Source: Candidatus Krumholzibacteriia bacterium
GTDB taxonomy: Bacteria > Krumholzibacteriota > Krumholzibacteriia > WVZY01
Direction: 5' to 3'
Length of the DNA: 15,823 nucleotides
Assembly (NCBI GenBank): GCA_036478295.1
Contig: JAZGDW010000141.1
Location: 1-15,823, forward strand
This document shows positions 9,001 to 15,000 of this stretch, piece by piece (the stretch's first letter is position 1; each line of letters begins with the position of its first letter). The position numbers are program-made.

Positions 9001-12000
9001 AACAGACTCGACCCCGATTCCGAATATTCCGGGTCCCGATTTCTGGCTCGTTGACTGTGATCCGATCAACGACGCTATCCTCTGTGGAGGTTCCGCGTCG
9101 TCCGGTGCCGATTCTCTGACGAACGCCGCAGGCACGACAACCATGGGTGGCCTTGGTGGCTTCCAGGGTGGTGGCTGTACTGACGGCATCTCCGTCGTTG
9201 TGCAGGGTAACGCACTTCTGGATCCGGTCGTCAGCTGCGCAGCTGCGAAATGCCTCGGAGTCAGTATTCGCAGCCCCGACATGAACGGTGACAACGTGGT
9301 TGCCCTGGCAGATCTCGCGATTTTTGCCACGTCTTTCCCGCCGCAGCCGTACGATACGTGGGCCGATTTTGACCTTTCCGGCATCGTCAACCTGTCGGAT
9401 CTGGCCCGGTTCGCGTTTCACTTCGGTCCTCCGGGACACGCGTGTAACTAACGAAGCTGCGGAAAAGTTGGACAGGCAATAGCTCCTGAAAATTGGTTTG
9501 CGACAACAGGGCGTAACAGCAAGTAAGAGGAGTTGCCAGATGAGAATTGCTAGAACATTGATCTTCGCGCTTGTCGCGCCGACCCTGATCGGCGCGTCTG
9601 TGGCGAGTGCGCAAACTCCCTACTAGTGTCTGAAATCTTGAGCTGGATGAGCCCCAACGGGTTCATCCGAAGTGGTTCATCCAGCTTCCCAGAATCAGCA
9701 CTCCAGGGCGATTCAATGAATCAAAGGTTCTTCGCAATTTCTGACCAACAACTGTTTCAATGGGCGTAACCTCGACTTGAGCGAGATTACAACAATCAGG
9801 ACACGCAGCAAACAAGCAAAGGAGTTGCACCAATGACGAATGTAAAAGTGTTGGTCTTCGCGCTGGGGGTGCTCGCAATAGTCGGAGCATCTTTCGCCGG
9901 TGCGCAGACGCCCTACGTAGCTGTCTTTTCGGACATATCACCCAGTGGGGACGGGCTGAACGAGGCCTTGATTCCGCCGGGTGTGCTGGGCCAGGTGGAT
10001 TCGCTCTTCCTCGTTGCCTACAATTTGAACTGTCTGGTAACAGGTATTGATGTTCGGGTCAATTACCCGGCGGCCATCATCTGGATCGCGGATATTGACA
10101 CACAGCCGGTGACCATTGGCACGACGCCGACGGGCATGTCCATGGGATGGGCCATTCCACAGAACGGGTTCGAGGGCGTAAACATCGCGACTGTCATCTT
10201 CCAGTGGGATATCACCTCCTGTGGAGGGAACAGGAGGGACCTTGAGATAGGAGTTGTTGGCCATCCGTTGTTCGCGACCCCTCTCGAGCCGGCGTACGCC
10301 TGCTTTCAGCAGGTACCCCTGTCCGCTGCGGTGGGTCTGACCGCGCTCATTTGCGCGACGGTGCCGGTTGAAGAGAGTACGTGGGGCAAAGTGAAAGCGC
10401 TGTATACGCGATAGGTTGTATTGAGTTGCTCCATAGTTTCTGGAGCCCGGTACTACGGACTTGGAAGTACCAGTTATTTGGCGCGCGTTGCGTCGGCCAG
10501 GTCTGTTGGAGCGGCGGAGAGCCGGGATTGAAGTTGACATGAGCGGCTCTGTTATGGTAACATCTACGGGCTCCAGAAAAGTCCAGGTCCTTAGTCGGCA
10601 CTCGAAAGGGAGGTAGCTGTCGGTTTCTCAGCGAGAGAGTTTTTTTGACCGCGCGGACACACCAAGCGGTTAAGCTCTTGTCCGATCTCCAACGTGCTAC
10701 CGGCTGAGCGAATGGAAAATGGTAAATGGCAAGCAGGCCTTTCACCCCGTTCACTCAAAAAGGAGTGTTTCATGAAAAAGGTGATACTGTTAACTACGGT
10801 TATGCTTTTCGGCGCGAGCCTCGCGTTCGGCCAGGTGGGATTTCTCGGTACCTACGCCGATCCGGGCGGTCTCGAGTGTAACGTCGACGATGCAGTCGCG
10901 GGATTGCTGAACGTCTTTATAGTCAGCACGCACTCGATCGCCGCGGCTGTCGCTTTTAAGGCGGAGACGCCACTTTGTATGAGCACGACGGGTGCGTCGT
11001 TTCTCGCCGACACGAAGCCGTTCCCGGTGACGGTCGGTAACTCGCAGACCGGCGTTTCTGTGGCATACGGCGCCTGTTTAGGCCCCGATGCGACTAACGT
11101 TCTGATCATCGCCTACTTCGCCAGCGGGACGACCCCGTTGTGCTGTTTCTTCCCGATCACGGGCGATCCGGCCCAGCCCGGGGGCGAGATTATCGTTACC
11201 GATTGTGCTTTCGATGACAACATTGGAGTCGGTGTTATACACACGGTCAACGGCACACCCGAGAACTGTGCTTGCACCCCCCCGAGCCCTCCGGTGCCGG
11301 TTGAGGAGAGCACGTGGGGCAAGGTGAAGTCGCTGTACGTCGAGTAGAGACTGTTCGGTTATACTTGTTTCGTTGAGATGACGCCCGCTGCCACGTAGCG
11401 GGCGTTATCTTTTTTCTCGAGTCTTGCCGTTTGGCAGCCGATTTTGCACTCTGCGAGAGTGCCGGCCGGGCCAGGCGAACGGACTGCCTCTCCCGCAGCT
11501 CCCCGGTCTCCCGAGTGTGGAAGCCCCTCAGGAAAAAGCTGCCCAAACGGGGGCGCATACGGTCGCACAACGGCCGGTTAGTTCCGGCACGAGATTTGGC
11601 CCTCTCCGGGACGATTCCTGGTGCCGTGCCCGCCCGTTGGGTCCATCTCTTGCATACGATACCCGCAGGACGTCCTGATCCAAAAACCTGGTTAATTTCT
11701 AGAGCGAGGTGATCGTATGCGCATTTTTCGATCGATAGCGGTGGCGGCTCTGCTGCTCGTGGTCTGCACGGGCCTGTCCTTGGCGCAGACACCCACTGTC
11801 CGAATCTATTTTGACACGGGGCTCACGGCACAGAGCGAGAATTGCCCGCCCGGCGGTGGGCTTGATTCGATGTTCGTCGTGGCCCAGGCGTTCGGCTCCC
11901 TCATCATGGGCCTGGAGCTGGCCATCAACTTTCCCGGGACCATGACATGGCTCGCGGACGTAGGCACACCCCCGGTGACCTTCGGCGACTCGCCGACGGG

Positions 12001-15000
12001 CATTTCCATGGGCTGGCCGGTGCCGGAGAATGCGTTCGGGAGGTTCAGGGCCTACATGGTCCTGTTCACGTGGAACTGCAATGGTTGCGGGGTCACCGAC
12101 GATCCCGCCGTTGTCGTACCGAACCCAAGCACCGGATTTGTCGGCGCTGCGTCATTCCCGACCTACCAGCTCATCAGCGCTGTTGGCATGACATCACTGG
12201 TGTGCGCCACAGTCCCCGTCGAAGAGACAACCTGGGGCCGCGTCAAGGCCCTCTATTCTGCGACGCGATAAGCGACGTTTTCCGCATACGTCTCCGACGA
12301 TAACCCACCCACGAGAGGCCGCCTCCCGTGGGTGGCTGCTTTTTAGCCGGTTGCCGGGCATAAACGTCCGATCGCACGGGCGGGCCTTTTCCAAACCACA
12401 AAAAAGCTTGACATCCACGACGGCTCCGTTGAACACTTACTCCGCGGTCGTCCTGTGCCGCTTGGTTCACGTTGGTTTGCGTGGCCGCCGCTCGAGACGG
12501 CTTGCCGTTTGGGCGATGGCAAGGGGTGCACGGGGCTGCCTGTGCCGCCGGATGTAAGGGCTCGTTGCGTATTTCCTCGTCTTCGAAGGAGACGTCTATG
12601 AAAAAGGCTTTGTTATTGACGATCGTGTTCACGCTGTGGGCGACCATGGCTTTTGCCCAGGCGGGGCTTATTTCGATATTCGCGGACGTCGGGGGCAACG
12701 ACTGCAACCTGGTGGACGTAGCAGGCGTAAACAACTGGAACTTCGTGCACATGGCCACGGTGGGCGCGACCGCGATCTGGTTCAAGGCGGAGTTTCCCGC
12801 TTGTTATGCGGGCAGTTTTATAGCGGACCAGGTCCCGTTCGCTGTCTCGAATGGCAACTCGCAAATTGGCCTTGCCGTTGGGTATGGCCAATGCTTGGTG
12901 TCGCCGATCCTTGTTGCGACGGTGGTCTCGATTGGTTTGGGTAACACACTCCCCTGCTGCGCGTACCCGATTGTCGGCGACCCTTTCTCTTTGTCGGGGA
13001 CGATCGAAGTGACGGATTGCGCCTTCAAGGACATTCCCAATGTTCCCAGCCAGAACGGGATGATAAACAGCGACGCGACGTGCCTGTGCGCCGTTGCCGT
13101 CCACGAGACGACCTGGGGCCAGATCAAAGCAATCTATCGGTCGGCCGATTAGTCACAGCGCGTAGTTAATCCAAGTGTTCGGCCCTTGCCCCTGTAGGGG
13201 TAAGGGCCGTTCTTTATTGACCATGCGGTACGTGGGTACCGGTAACCCATGAGCCGGGCGATTGACAACGGGCACCGGTCCGCGGTATACTGATACTCGA
13301 TCTCGCTTCGACTTGACGGCGACGATTGGATCTAATAAGTTTTAGCTAGTTTGCCAGCCTGCTTTTAGCCCCCTGCGACATCCAAACACGGTAACCCCTG
13401 TGCTTGAAGCCTTGGGAGGTTGTATCTACATGCGTTCCGGCCGTTTTTTCGTAGTGCCCCCCCCACACGGGTTGTGGTTCGGCGTCGTGCTGGCCTGCGC
13501 CGCACTCGTCGTGGCAGGACCCGCCGCGGCGCCCGCCGTCGGTGCGGAGGTCAAGCTCGTGTCCTCAGACGCCTCCCGGCTGGTTTTCGAAGTGAACCTG
13601 GAAGGGTTCCGTTTCGAGGCGTCACCGTTTCTCGCGGGGACCGAAAGACTCGAGATACCGGATTTCGGGACCCTGACCGGAGAAGGCGAGCCCCGGCTGC
13701 CCGGGCGCTACTATATGGTCGCCCTGCCGCCTGAGGGCCGCTACTCGCTTCGCTCCACGATCGTTCGCTCGCAACCCCTCGGCCGGCACCGGCTGGAGCC
13801 GGCGCCTTCGGCGGTTGCCGTGCGGGACGGAGCGGATTTCGTGACCACCCGGGAAATCTACCGCATCGACGACTCGGTATACGGGCAAAAGAAGTACACC
13901 ATCGGTGTGACGGACGCCGGCGTCGGCCGCGTGCGACACCAGCGCATCGTGTCGCTCCGGGTGGATCCGGTGGCGTACGACCCGGCGACGGGAGAGACCG
14001 TTTTGGCCACGATCATCCGCATCGAGGTGTCCTTCGACCCGGCCGGCCGGAACAGGCTCGGCCCGGGCCGTGAGGACGCCCTGCGACCTGTCCCCGAGTC
14101 CGATGTGTGGGACCGTATCCTGTCAGGAATGCTGGTGAATCCGGGGCAGGCCCGGGAATGGCGGGCCGCGCCGAGGCGATCTGCAGTCTATCGGGAAACA
14201 GCCCAGGCCGCCCTGGCGCTGGCCGGTCCCGTGGTAAAACTCCAGGTGAAGGAGAGCCGGATGCACCGCGTGAGCGCCGCCTCCGTCATTGCCGAAGGGT
14301 TTCCGGCGGGGACGGCAACCGCAGATCTACACTTGTTCAAACGCTCGTACGACGACGCCATCCTGGCGGAGCGCGTCGTCGATGTGGCCTACAAGGTGGT
14401 CGAGGACCCGGCTGGCACGGTGGGCACTTTCGACGGCAACGACTACGTGATTTTCTACGGCCAGCAGCTCCGCGAAGACACGCTGCAAGACGATCCGATT
14501 CAGAAGTTCACCGACGATAACATATACTGGCTGGGTGCGTCTGCCGGCCCGCAGATGAGTCCCAAGACCGTCGCGCCCGGGTTCGTGACCGGCGACACCA
14601 CCTCGGCGTCGTTCCCCGTGACCCGCCGTTTCGAACGGGACCTGTGGTTCCGCGAGAAGACGCCGCCGCTGGAGCGGGATTTTTTCTACTACCATAATCC
14701 ACGGCTGCAGTCTTTTTCGGCGCCGTTTGTGCTCGACGCGGTCGACGGCGGCGACCAGTTTCGCGTGAAGGCCCGGTTTTTGGGCGCAGACCGCAACGTC
14801 ATCTCGCGCGTCATAAGGGTGAGAATCCTCAACAGCAAAGGCACGACCGTCTTGAAGCAGGTATCCGTGCCGAGGAACACACTGATCAACTACGACTCCG
14901 GGCCGATGTTTGCCGGTTCTCTGGTCGAAGGCCTCAACACCTTTCGAATCACGCCAGACGCTCAGAACCAGGCGTCGTTCCTCGACGTGCTCCTCAACTG

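What a model noticed while it worked through the whole genome (the two positions that open the first line are those of the whole stretch)
9833..13152. A short C-terminal tag, PVE-x-(S/T)-T-W-G-x-(I/V)-K-x-L-(Y/F), on 34 unrelated secreted proteins: a candidate new protei [...]
At least 34 proteins of this genome end in the same ~17-residue motif, consensus T-V-P-V-E-E-T-T-W-G-R-I-K-A-L-Y followed by only 1-12 more residues (W, G and K invariant). The carriers have N-terminal signal peptides and otherwise unrelated bodies: BACON repeats (g00608, g00609), CHRD (g01076, g03044), NHL (g01285, g00561), NosD beta-helix (g00444), LTD (g00977), Temptin (g00633), DUF7450 (g01051) and a 14-member paralog family without any Pfam domain, four of them in tandem at C48:9833-13152 just upstream of a C25 (PorU/gingipain-type) peptidase g00385. 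The tag is modelled as a detached amphipathic helix after a flexible linker. Position, diversity of cargo and replacement by a T9SS C-term [...]
Evidence so far: Regex and then a profile of the tails over all 3140 proteins: 34 proteins with the motif ending <=14 residues from the C-terminus (E<0.01), W/G/K 34 of 34, P-V-E 30/30/29 of 34; 26 of the first 28 members show a typical signal peptide. It is the second largest group of shared C-terminal 30-mers after the T9SS CTD (79). DNA pattern for (S/T)WGx(V/I/M)Kx(L/I/M/F)(Y/F): 29 hits in this genome, 51 in G201, 42 in G188, 18 in G098, 12 in G001 (four other families of the phylum), 0 hits of the reversed control pattern in all five; 0 and 1 hits in two genomes of other phyla. 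In 20 of 20 sampled hits from G188, G098 and G001 a stop codon follows 1-4 codons after the motif. Tails (40 aa) of 6 members: [...]
(Added by a program. Inside this text positions count along the whole contig: contig position 1 is position 1 of the stretch shown here. "Call 12" and the like, gene names such as g00115 and contig names such as C1 are that model's own, and its searches are not shown. The text may have been shortened before it was handed on; [...] marks where a part breaks off. The agent that wrote the report below was given it as the finding of a first reader that could run no searches.)

Follow-up and report, generated by a model that had tools for sequence, protein, structure and literature searches.

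The report
Portable C-terminal "TWG" protein address tag
Dozens of unrelated exported proteins in this uncultured bacterium and its relatives end in the same short peptide, which looks like an undescribed address label tied to a conserved gene cluster holding a second PorU-type sorting protease.

Summary
Four tandem genes (9833-13152) each end in PVE-x-(S/T)-T-W-G-x-(I/V)-K-x-(L/I)-Y plus 2-4 residues. I found 37 such tails in the genome, all within 12 residues of a stop, on 20 unrelated body families. No Pfam or NCBIfam model matches them and no paper was found.

New here:
- Five of the 20 body families have paralogs in the same genome that carry a type IX secretion (T9SS) C-terminal domain instead of the tag.
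- The four window proteins have a cohesin fold. They belong to a conserved cluster: dockerin-like protein, then 1-6 cohesin-fold TWG proteins, then a second PorU-like C25 peptidase with an intact His/Cys pair. A tag-bearing gene sits directly upstream of that peptidase in 21 of 25 scorable loci, and the cluster recurs in a second phylum (Eisenbacteria).
- One family of the phylum carries a variant tag (W-S, stop right after Y/F) on dispersed carriers, which implies one shared reader.

Best reading: an address tag parallel to the T9SS domain and read by this cluster, perhaps cleaved by the PorU-like enzyme. Function, outer-membrane crossing and reader are unproven.

This scan flagged the same tail before on other DNA (Poribacteria, and a cohesin-like family).

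The parts
8744..9451 (+). Secreted Cys-rich protein with a dockerin-like C-terminal module (two DxNxD-type loops, residues 178-229). It has no TWG tail and is the first gene of the conserved cluster.
   Evidence: ORF. No Pfam hit at E<=1. The only PDB sequence hit is a cellulosomal dockerin, 2y3n_B, E 0.0075, covering both repeats. Proteins with the same kind of C-terminus precede the arrays in G005, G015, G178 and G227.
9833..10414 (+). Cohesin-fold TWG protein, subtype A (193 aa). Tag at 10361-10411.
   Evidence: family alignment; tail profile, E 1.2e-9. No Pfam or NCBIfam hit.
10772..11347 (+). Cohesin-fold TWG protein, subtype B with CxC before the tag (191 aa). Tag at 11294-11344.
   Evidence: AAGGAG sits before the ATG. 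Terminator-like hairpin at 11375-11411.
11717..12271 (+). Cohesin-fold TWG protein, subtype A (184 aa). Tag at 12212-12268.
   Evidence: AF2 pLDDT 90.2, with the tail helix 172-182 at pLDDT about 55-58. Foldseek top hits are cohesins (5n5p_A, E 3.6e-5, TM 0.63 on the target). All 36 aligned relatives keep the tail.
12598..13152 (+). Cohesin-fold TWG protein, subtype B (184 aa). Tag at 13093-13149. This is the subtype that lies next to the peptidase in related genomes.
   Evidence: AF2 pLDDT 86.1. The listed Foldseek top hits are almost all cohesins (5nrm_A, E 5.3e-5). Terminator-like hairpin at 13180-13209.
13400..15823 (+). 5' part (808 aa) of a PorU-like C25 cysteine peptidase ('PorU-L'), cut by the contig end. 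Its 3' part lies at G000:C292:3817-5493(-).
   Evidence: PF01364 1.4e-30, PF08126 3.3e-8. NF033707 115.8 bits and NF052324 79.9 bits, both far under their cut-offs. The C292 piece scores 835.6 bits over profile positions 840-1395. Promoter-like site at 13262-13291, 11 of 12 matches.

Best explanation
The roughly 17-residue tail is (C-x2-4)-[VI]-P-[VT]-[EQ]-x-[ST]-[ST]-W-[GS]-x-[VI]-K-x-[LIM]-[YF], followed by 0-12 residues and then the C-terminus. I read it as a portable address tag on Sec-exported proteins that is recognised in trans by one conserved factor.

It works in parallel with the T9SS C-terminal domain: the same kinds of envelope or surface proteins carry either one or the other.

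That cluster runs: dockerin-like protein, then one to six cohesin-fold TWG proteins, then a second PorU-like C25 peptidase that itself ends in a T9SS-type domain.

My preferred mechanism is inferred, not shown. The PorU-like enzyme treats the tag as PorU treats the CTD, or as sortase treats LPXTG on the cohesin-bearing anchoring scaffoldin ScaE. It would cut in the small-residue stretch just before W and fix or release the protein at the cell envelope.

Shown:
- the tag, its position and its cargo diversity
- its exchange with the CTD on paralogs
- the cohesin fold of the core proteins
- the synteny with the peptidase and the peptidase's intact catalytic pair
- the concerted lineage variant of the tag

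Inferred: that there is one reader, that it comes from the cluster, that the tag is cleaved, and how the carriers cross the outer membrane.

For: 1. Position and portability. 37 tails in G000, all within 12 aa of a stop and 0 reversed controls, on 20 body clusters. 143 of 143 proteins returned from the 5.8-billion-protein set carry the motif within 10 aa of the end.

2. Exchange with the T9SS CTD in the same genome. C156:23503-24798 is a cohesin-like domain 42% identical to window protein 3, followed by an extra domain and a CTD; the divergence starts right after the conserved Cys where the tag would begin. C216 (CHRD x3 + CTD), C226 (NHL + CTD), C260 (beta-helix + CTD) and C136/C169 do the same. 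That is 5 of 20 clusters.

3. Two signals and two enzymes. There are 84 CTD hits and 37 tags. A canonical PorU lies at C289 (429 bits, over the cut-off), followed on C288 by a PorV-like gene, in addition to the window's PorU-L.

4. Synteny. Of the 30 best PorU-L loci in the phylum, 25 have at least 700 nt of upstream flank. 21 of those 25 have a tag-bearing ORF directly upstream on the same strand, in families f1, f2 and f5. Arrays also precede PorU-L in two f3 genomes (G005, G015), and a single tag-bearing gene sits upstream of it in three Eisenbacteria genomes (G178, G190, G227). Arrays of 3-6 genes were seen in the first locus set.

5. PorU-L is built like a working enzyme. H903 and C946 are invariant in 19 of 19 orthologs. 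The full-length ortholog has Propeptide_C25, Peptidase_C25 and a weak T9SS-type CTD. Its only PDB sequence relative is PorU, 6za2.

6. Concerted variant. The f3 genomes G004, G015 and G005 have 37, 11 and 6 tails of the form [ST]-W-[S/G]-x-[VI]-K-x-L-[YF]-stop, almost all of them W-S. They use several different Ser codons and are spread over many contigs. G000 has 0 of this form.

7. Spread. The strict pattern is found in 151 of 151 genomes of the phylum, with 2 control hits in total, and in 74 of 81 Eisenbacteria (that sample includes the unpublished G175, so 73 of 80 without it).

8. The PorU sortase-like mechanism is taken from passages of the review PMC10202324.
Against: - Topology. The carriers have only a Sec signal, whereas PorU-type enzymes act on the cell surface after T9SS export. 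No route across the outer membrane is evident. Some cargo types (cupredoxin, NosD-like, small multihaem cytochrome) are classically periplasmic.

- PorU-L is not tag-specific. Six of the seven Eisenbacteria genomes with no strict-pattern hit still have a full-length PorU-L at 552-609 bits. In two of them the one cluster-linked tail is degenerate (TTTWGKIKMTYK, TTWEKIRATYR). A looser pattern finds only that one tail in G179 and none in the other four genomes tried. That pattern cannot see CGN arginine codons.

- The genes look like separate transcription units: intergenic gaps of about 250-380 nt, with terminator-like hairpins after three of the four genes.

- In G079/G158 the full-length PorU-L lies away from the array, and only an N-terminal fragment-like ORF is next to it. 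Masked bases complicate this reading.

- The hydrophobic moment of the tail is modest (0.18-0.38) and its AF2 confidence is low, so even the helix is uncertain.

- Nothing here shows cleavage.
Confidence: 0.45

Rival explanations
1. Non-covalent docking peptide. The tail is never cleaved. It is a short linear motif, a 'mini-dockerin', that plugs carriers into a receptor. The receptor would most plausibly be the cohesin-fold core proteins of the cluster, which would also chain to each other through their own tails, or else an outer-membrane or S-layer protein.
For: - The core family has a cohesin fold, a module specialised in binding helical partners, and a dockerin-like protein is encoded beside it.
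- The core family is the one tag-bearing family tied to the cluster in both phyla. HHalign of subtype B against the Eisenbacteria cluster proteins gives 97.6% probability, E 3.4e-12.
- The tail decays in tag-poor genomes while PorU-L stays intact.
- A TWG-like motif also occurs inside a loop of a lipoprotein family. That fits a binding epitope better than a C-terminal cleavage signal.
Against: - It does not explain the near-absolute C-terminal position (143 of 143).
- It does not explain why the supposed receptor itself always carries the tag.
- Four of five tag-rich Eisenbacteria genomes show only tail-level matches to the A1 family profile.
- No binding was tested between a cohesin-fold body and a tail.
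Confidence: 0.27
2. Membrane or LPS anchor. The tail is an interfacial amphipathic helix with Trp/Tyr at its ends and Lys/Arg alongside. It would tether Sec-exported proteins to a membrane leaflet, as the C-terminal helices of PBP5 and PBP6 do (that comparison is recalled, not from a call). No dedicated reader would be needed.
For: - AF2 draws a short helix after a Pro/Glu linker in both models.
- The composition is W, I/V, L, Y plus K/R.
- It would suit periplasmic-type cargo such as cupredoxin and cytochrome c.
Against: - Hydrophobic moment is only 0.18-0.38.
- Generic lipid-binding helices do not keep invariant W-G-x-x-K and an acidic PVE box across phyla.
- They do not switch in concert to W-S plus an immediate stop in one lineage.
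- This reading does not explain the synteny with the C25 cluster.
Confidence: 0.1
3. Turnover or quality-control tag read by a periplasmic C-terminal protease (Prc/CtpA type) or a PDZ protein.
For: The position is at the extreme C-terminus.
Against: The very last residues vary freely (R, E, Q, N, SATR, RSAD, or none), whereas PDZ and Ctp recognition centres on the terminal residues (that point is recalled). The tag is kept on all 36 aligned members of a structural family. It is linked to a cluster with no such protease.
Confidence: 0.05

Closest known systems
T9SS type A C-terminal domain with the PorU sortase (TIGR04183/PF18962; review PMC10202324, passages read)
   Same: A C-terminal signal on Sec-exported, otherwise unrelated surface-type proteins. 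It is found in the same genomes and on paralogs of the same bodies. A PorU-family C25 peptidase is encoded beside the core carriers.
   Different: About 17 residues with no fold of their own, against a roughly 70-80-residue beta-sandwich. No HMM match. The tag is not placed in front of CTDs in this genome: 0 of 48 junctions inspected. It is unknown whether these proteins pass the SprA translocon.
LPXTG/sortase on single-cohesin anchoring scaffoldins such as Ruminococcus flavefaciens ScaE (structure 2zf9 among the fold hits; the biology is recalled)
   Same: A cohesin-fold module followed directly by a short C-terminal signal. A sortase-type cysteine transpeptidase gene and a dockerin-type partner are encoded nearby.
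   Different: No LPXTG, no hydrophobic segment and no basic tail. This is a diderm organism. The enzyme is clan CD C25, not a sortase-fold enzyme. The cohesin and dockerin assignments rest on fold and on a weak sequence hit, not on Pfam membership.
Tripartite C-terminal sorting signals: PEP-CTERM/exosortase, GlyGly-CTERM/rhombosortase, MYXO-CTERM/myxosortase (seen as listing and abstracts only: PMC3237569, bioRxiv 10.1101/2023.06.07.544157)
   Same: A short signature motif near the C-terminus of many unrelated exported proteins in one genome. The distribution is lineage-restricted. One target often sits beside the processing enzyme. A Cys frequently lies just upstream (about 20 of 37 tails, by eye).
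   Different: No transmembrane helix and no Arg/Lys cluster after the motif. No intramembrane protease is implicated.
NCBIfam 'ultrashort C-terminal' YLP-box sorting motif (NF053834, NF050076), known to me only through the earlier scan note e1-5125091
   Same: A very short C-terminal tag without a membrane anchor. According to that note, it also occurs together with a PorU-like peptidase.
   Different: A different motif. The NCBIfam scan of the four window proteins at E<=10 returned no family at all.

Membership tests
T9SS type A CTD (TIGR04183 / PF18962) | HMM match to the roughly 70-residue C-terminal beta-sandwich domain | tested here: not met
   0 families for the four window proteins in NCBIfam (E<=10) and Pfam (E<=1). 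The same model finds 84 other places in the genome.
T9SS type B CTD (TIGR04131 / PF13585) | HMM match within the last ~100 residues, with a PorP/SprF-type neighbour gene | tested here: not met
   No hit. The neighbours of the array are a dockerin-like gene and a C25 peptidase.
Tripartite sorting signals (LPXTG, PEP-CTERM, GlyGly-CTERM, MYXO-CTERM) | Signature motif followed by a hydrophobic membrane-spanning stretch and a basic cluster | tested here: not met
   Only 0-12 residues follow the Y/F, 1-2 in 26 of 37 tails. There is a Lys in the middle of the 8-residue core. No NCBIfam hit.
NCBIfam ultrashort C-terminal sorting motifs (NF053834 / NF050076) | HMM match to the YLP box | tested here: not met
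   No NCBIfam family at E<=10.
Cohesin (PF00963) | Sequence-profile match | tested here: not met
   0 matches in the whole genome at E<=0.1. No Pfam hit for the four proteins.
Cohesin (PF00963) | Nine-strand jelly-roll cohesin fold | tested here: met
   Both subtypes were modelled at pLDDT 90.2 and 86.1. Their top Foldseek PDB hits are cohesins: E 3.6e-5 and 5.3e-5, TM 0.58-0.69 on the target, 7-16% identity.
Cohesin (PF00963) | Binds a dockerin | not tested
Dockerin (PF00404), for the 8744-9451 protein | Two Ca-binding loop-helix repeats matching the profile | tested here: inconclusive
   No Pfam hit at E<=1. phmmer against PDB hits only a cellulosomal dockerin, 2y3n_B, E 0.0075, across both repeats.
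T9SS sortase PorU (NF033707), for the 13400-15823 gene | Score over the equivalog cut-off (420 bits) | tested here: not met
   115.8 bits for the window part and 193.5 bits for the full-length ortholog. The genome's other copy at C289 scores 429. PorU2 (NF052324): 79.9 and 91.8 bits against a cut-off of 450.
T9SS sortase PorU (NF033707), for the 13400-15823 gene | C25 catalytic domain with a His/Cys dyad | tested here: met
   PF01364 at 1.6e-52 over 2-373 of 374 profile positions in the ortholog. H903 and C946 are invariant in 19 of 19, aligned to the GHG and SC of the canonical copy.
T9SS sortase PorU (NF033707), for the 13400-15823 gene | Retained T9SS C-terminal domain | tested here: inconclusive
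   FlgD_ig 24.9 bits (cut-off 27) and TIGR04183 20.8 bits (cut-off 23) in the ortholog. PNPF and GVYLY motifs are visible in the alignment.

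The most novel reading that the evidence does not exclude
These phyla run a second, undescribed C-terminal sorting pathway beside type IX secretion. A dedicated PorU paralog recognises a 17-residue, non-membrane, non-domain tag. It either carries the tagged proteins out with it (it owns the T9SS domain that they lack) or ligates them at the surface. The result would be a cohesin-dockerin-like display scaffold on a diderm cell. The invariant Lys of the tag could even be the amine acceptor in a PorU-type transpeptidation.
Probability: 0.2. Interest if true: 0.9.

Novelty: new variant of a known kind. Interest (0 to 1): 0.72.

Why it matters
C-terminal sorting signals (LPXTG, PEP-CTERM, the T9SS CTD) have each led to a processing machine and to a census of surface proteins.

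This tag marks 6-74 proteins per genome in the genomes counted in detail, and some genomes have only one or none. It occurs in at least two uncultured phyla of the FCB group. It has no annotation model, so whole classes of envelope proteins there are currently labelled 'hypothetical'.

It is much shorter than any T9SS signal and lacks the membrane anchor of the sortase-type signals. If it is a sorting signal, it works by a different principle.

The link to a second PorU-type peptidase and to cohesin- and dockerin-like modules gives a concrete, testable system:
- a peptide cleavage assay,
- a binding assay,
- a search of metaproteomes for C-terminal peptides.

A simple profile of the tag would immediately improve annotation of these phyla.

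Tried and rejected
- **Complex prediction**. PorU-L catalytic region (residues 590-1100 of the ortholog, 19-row alignment) with the mature subtype-B protein. Verdict: no answer (score 0.00, mark 0.32). This is neither for nor against binding.

- **Tag in front of the T9SS CTD** (lead from earlier Poribacteria notes). Not seen here: 0 of 48 junctions inspected out of 84 CTD hits. The tail profile found only one internal match in the genome. That match and its ortholog in L029 are a loop insert in a lipoprotein domain, not a CTD.

- **Presence/absence test of PorU-L against the tag.** Uninformative in the window's phylum, where both are nearly universal. In Eisenbacteria, PorU-L persists without tags.

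- **Cohesin-like family as universal receptor.** The A1 profile gives only tail-level matches in 4 of 5 tag-rich Eisenbacteria genomes. HHalign later linked the cluster protein to the family.

- **Canonical cellulosome.** Pfam Cohesin has 0 hits and Dockerin_1 has 2 hits in the genome.

- **Literature.** 'PorU2' matched only unrelated text plus one T9SS structure paper that I did not open. 'Krumholzibacteri' + 'type IX secretion', 'Eisenbacteria' + 'C-terminal' + 'sorting', and 'Latescibacteria' + 'cohesin' + 'dockerin' each returned 0 papers. Searches returned nothing on this motif. A text search cannot find an unnamed motif.

  - A 34-aa tail alignment was too short for the big protein search; I redid it with 44 aa.
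  - 'of' needs a G handle; I went through handles instead.
  - One script error and one script time-out were rerun.
  - Minus-strand ORF coordinates printed are on the reverse-complemented contig. One search gives the true coordinates for the 37 carriers.

Full report
**1. What is in the window**

The window is a whole contig of 15,823 bases (C48 of G000). On the + strand it carries housekeeping genes up to about 8,100. After those come six genes:
- a 235-aa secreted protein (8744-9451),
- four paralogous genes of 184-193 aa (9833-10414, 10772-11347, 11717-12271, 12598-13152),
- the first 808 codons of a C25 peptidase (13400-15823), cut by the contig end.

Each of the four paralogs has a signal peptide that ends in A-Q or G-Q. 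They end in VPVEESTWGKVKALYTR, VPVEESTWGKVKSLYVE, VPVEETTWGRVKALYSATR and VAVHETTWGQIKAIYRSAD.

At the DNA level the tail-coding 46 nt forms a four-copy direct repeat of the region. None of the four proteins matches any Pfam (E<=1) or NCBIfam (E<=10) model.

**2. Is the tag more than chance?**

Yes.
- A profile built from those tails finds 37 ORFs with the tail at the C-terminus.
- W, G and K are present in 37 of 37, P-V-E in 33, 32 and 31, and S/T before W in 37 of 37.
- With the tails removed, the 37 bodies fall into 20 clusters by blastp and phmmer: one family of 15, one of 3, one of 2 and 17 singletons.
- Pfam on 20 non-window carriers confirms CHRD (2), LTD, BACON_2 (2, behind an N-terminal cohesin-like domain), DUF7450, Temptin_C, Beta_helix/NosD and NHL. 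It adds a small multihaem cytochrome c. Ten have no family.
- 27 of 37 pass a crude signal-peptide rule and three more are obvious by eye. The other seven are ORFs with cut or unclear starts.

**3. Wider distribution**

The closest named records are 'Candidatus Krumholzibacteriia' MAGs (73% identity).

Within the phylum, all 151 sampled genomes (9 families, 69 genera) have the strict DNA pattern, at 1 to 63 hits each. The backwards control gave 2 hits in total.

Two complete MAGs that NCBI labels Latescibacterota (G157, G158) give the same hit counts as G126 and G079, which are in the window's own family. That label is therefore probably only a naming difference (this is an inference).

In a sample of 81 Eisenbacteria genomes, 74 have the pattern. 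That sample includes the unpublished genome G175.

A profile of 40 diverse tails, searched against 5.8 billion proteins, returned 560 proteins at E<=10 among the 8,000 candidates scored. The 120 listed, together with the earlier family hits (143 proteins in all), carry the motif within 10 residues of the end: 121 of them have 1-2 trailing residues. Carriers there include cupredoxins (PF00127), CHRD, BACON and beta-helix proteins. The source names are Krumholzibacteria, Latescibacterota, Eisenbacteria and one partial 'Planctomycetota' MAG.

The scan of 185,579 species genomes found only 578 stretches matching the strictest peptide pattern. Globally the tag is therefore rare.

Earlier notes of this scan report the same tail in Poribacteria. 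I could not reach those genomes.

**4. Relation to type IX secretion**

The genome has:
- SprA,
- three PorV-like genes,
- 84 type-A CTD hits,
- a canonical PorU (C289, 429 bits), whose C-terminal part on C288 is followed there by a PorV-like gene.

Five of the 20 tag-body clusters have paralogs in the same genome that end in a CTD instead of the tag. The clearest case is C156:23503-24798. Its cohesin-like domain is 42% identical to window protein 3. It diverges right after the conserved Cys, where the tag would start, and continues into another domain and a CTD. The tag and the CTD are therefore interchangeable C-terminal modules on the same kinds of protein.

The arrangement reported for Poribacteria, with the tag directly in front of the CTD, is not seen here (0 of 48 junctions).

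**5. The four window proteins**

AlphaFold2 models of subtype A (11717-12271, 36-row alignment, pLDDT 90.2) and subtype B (12598-13152, 19 rows, pLDDT 86.1) are beta-sandwiches. The tail is drawn as a short helix at pLDDT about 55.

For both models the Foldseek PDB lists are headed by cohesin modules, and for subtype B they are made up almost entirely of them. No sequence profile of cohesin matches.

All 36 aligned relatives keep the tail and two cysteines.

The upstream 8744-9451 protein ends in two DxNxD-type loops. Its only PDB sequence hit is a cellulosomal dockerin (E 0.0075).

**6. The peptidase**

The window gene scores far below the PorU and PorU2 cut-offs, but it is a complete C25 enzyme in relatives. 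The 1386-aa ortholog in L007 has Propeptide_C25, Peptidase_C25 (1.6e-52) and a weak T9SS-type C-terminal domain. Its only PDB sequence relative is PorU, 6za2. His903 and Cys946 are invariant in 19 of 19 orthologs and align with the GHG and SC of the canonical copy. The missing 3' part of the window's gene is at C292:3817-5493.

This 'PorU-L' is present in 147 of 151 genomes of the phylum, and in 118 of 118 of the high-quality ones.

**7. Synteny**

In the first locus set, arrays of 3-6 tag-bearing cohesin-like genes lie directly upstream of PorU-L in 11 loci.

Of the 30 best PorU-L loci fetched across the phylum, 25 have at least 700 nt of upstream sequence. 21 of those have a tag-bearing ORF immediately upstream on the same strand, in families f1, f2 and f5.

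Two f3 genomes have a dockerin-like gene, then three tag-bearing genes, then PorU-L.

Three Eisenbacteria genomes have a tag-bearing 240-257-aa protein, then a roughly 455-aa protein, then PorU-L. In two of the three (G178, G227) a dockerin-like gene comes first. That tag-bearing protein is related to subtype B by HHalign (97.6%, E 3.4e-12; the tail contributes to the score).

In the window the genes are separated by about 250-380 nt, with terminator-like hairpins after three of the four. A promoter-like site (11 of 12) lies before the peptidase. I therefore call this a cluster, not an operon.

**8. One reader**

Family f3 genomes had very few strict hits. A pattern that allows Ser or Thr in place of Gly and demands a stop right after Y/F finds 37, 11 and 6 tails in G004, G015 and G005, and 0 in G000. 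Nearly all are W-S. They are encoded by AGC, AGT, TCG, TCC and TCT, lie on many contigs, and include the cluster genes.

A concerted, protein-level switch of the tag across unrelated carriers in one lineage is what co-evolution with a single trans-acting reader predicts. It is hard to explain by a generic physical property.

**9. Mechanism**

The most economical reading is a second C-terminal address system beside T9SS. There are two signal classes (84 CTDs, 37 tags) and two PorU paralogs. The core tag-bearing proteins are encoded next to the second paralog. This resembles a cohesin-bearing anchoring scaffoldin with its sortase signal.

PorU is a sortase-like C-terminal signal peptidase (review PMC10202324, passages read). 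That PorU prefers small residues at its cut site is my recollection, not a result of any call.

Against this reading:
- The carriers have no evident way across the outer membrane.
- PorU-L persists at 552-609 bits in six of the seven Eisenbacteria genomes that lack the strict pattern.
- In two of those genomes the cluster-linked tail is degenerate, and a looser pattern finds no other tails.

These points favour the rival reading, in which the tail is an uncleaved docking peptide, perhaps for the cohesin-fold proteins themselves.

The single complex prediction gave no verdict and is not used as evidence.

**10. Novelty**

No Pfam or NCBIfam model matches the tag. I found no paper: searches returned nothing, and searches returned nothing on this motif. 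Text searches cannot find unnamed motifs.

The scan itself has met the tail before on other DNA: e1-1201725, e1-4952276 and e1-776854 in Poribacteria, and e1-1362553 for a cohesin-like family.

- the exchange with CTDs on paralogs in one genome,
- the cluster conserved across two phyla, with a catalytically intact second PorU-type peptidase and a dockerin-like partner,
- the lineage-wide tag variant.

Noticed in passing
G000:C45:28609-30159 (+) and L029:5912-7453 (-): A conserved lipoprotein family (lipobox TSGC / IVGC) carries a TWG-like motif (AVEDATWGRTKHLFF / ATEDATWGRVKAAFF) inside its C-terminal ~200-aa domain, 87-89 residues from the end. The motif is a loop insert. Paralogs listed as C198:23460-24191 and C54:12219-12848 lack it, and C54:11514-12218 has a degenerate version. 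Those three coordinates are on the reverse-complemented contigs.
   Followed up: partly
window 9451-13400 (intergenic stretches): The cluster genes are separated by about 250-380 nt. Terminator-like hairpins follow three of the four TWG genes (11375-11411, 12317-12337, 13180-13209). A near-consensus promoter-like site (13262-13291) precedes the peptidase. Each gene may therefore be its own transcription unit.
   Followed up: partly
G000:C182:24697-25296 (-), between the carriers C182:24034-24624 and C182:25383-26048: A member of the cohesin-like family stops at ...GIINHNATCP, exactly where the tag would begin. It may be a truncated copy or a frameshifted one.
   Followed up: no
G000:C129:36775-37545 (+): A 257-aa-frame protein with weak multihaem cytochrome c matches (Cytochrom_c3_2, 4.9e-6) carries the tag. 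Database carriers also include plastocyanin/azurin-type cupredoxins. Tagged redox proteins might point to extracellular or envelope electron transfer.
   Followed up: no
G000:C289:4568-7255 (+) and G000:C288:70-1499 (+): The canonical PorU (429 bits) runs off contig C289. Its likely C-terminal part is on C288 and is directly followed there by a PorV-like gene (125.7 bits). Two more PorV-like genes lie at C81:11980-12630 and C218:6211-6810.
   Followed up: partly
G158:C1:1862956-1863426 and G157:C1:459515-460324 (loci L072, L069): In two complete MAGs of the window's family, the array is followed only by an ORF matching the N-terminal 160-270 residues of PorU-L. The full-length gene lies elsewhere (G158:C1:4250715-4254605). 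Masked bases (runs of N) in these loci make the reading uncertain.
   Followed up: partly
L138, L139, L140 (Eisenbacteria G178, G190, G227): Between the tag-bearing gene and PorU-L lies a roughly 451-461-aa ORF whose C-terminus looked chaperone-like to me by eye (SurA/PpiD type). In G229, G163 and G187 a 616-701-aa ORF with a similar C-terminus lies directly upstream of PorU-L. No family scan was run.
   Followed up: no
window 2069-5728: By eye only: two STAS-like small proteins (2069-2413, 2517-2867), a small kinase-like ORF (about 2900-3336) and a large membrane protein with a PP2C/SpoIIE-like C-terminus (3464-5728). This resembles a partner-switching module. It is not related to the finding and was not scanned.
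   Followed up: no
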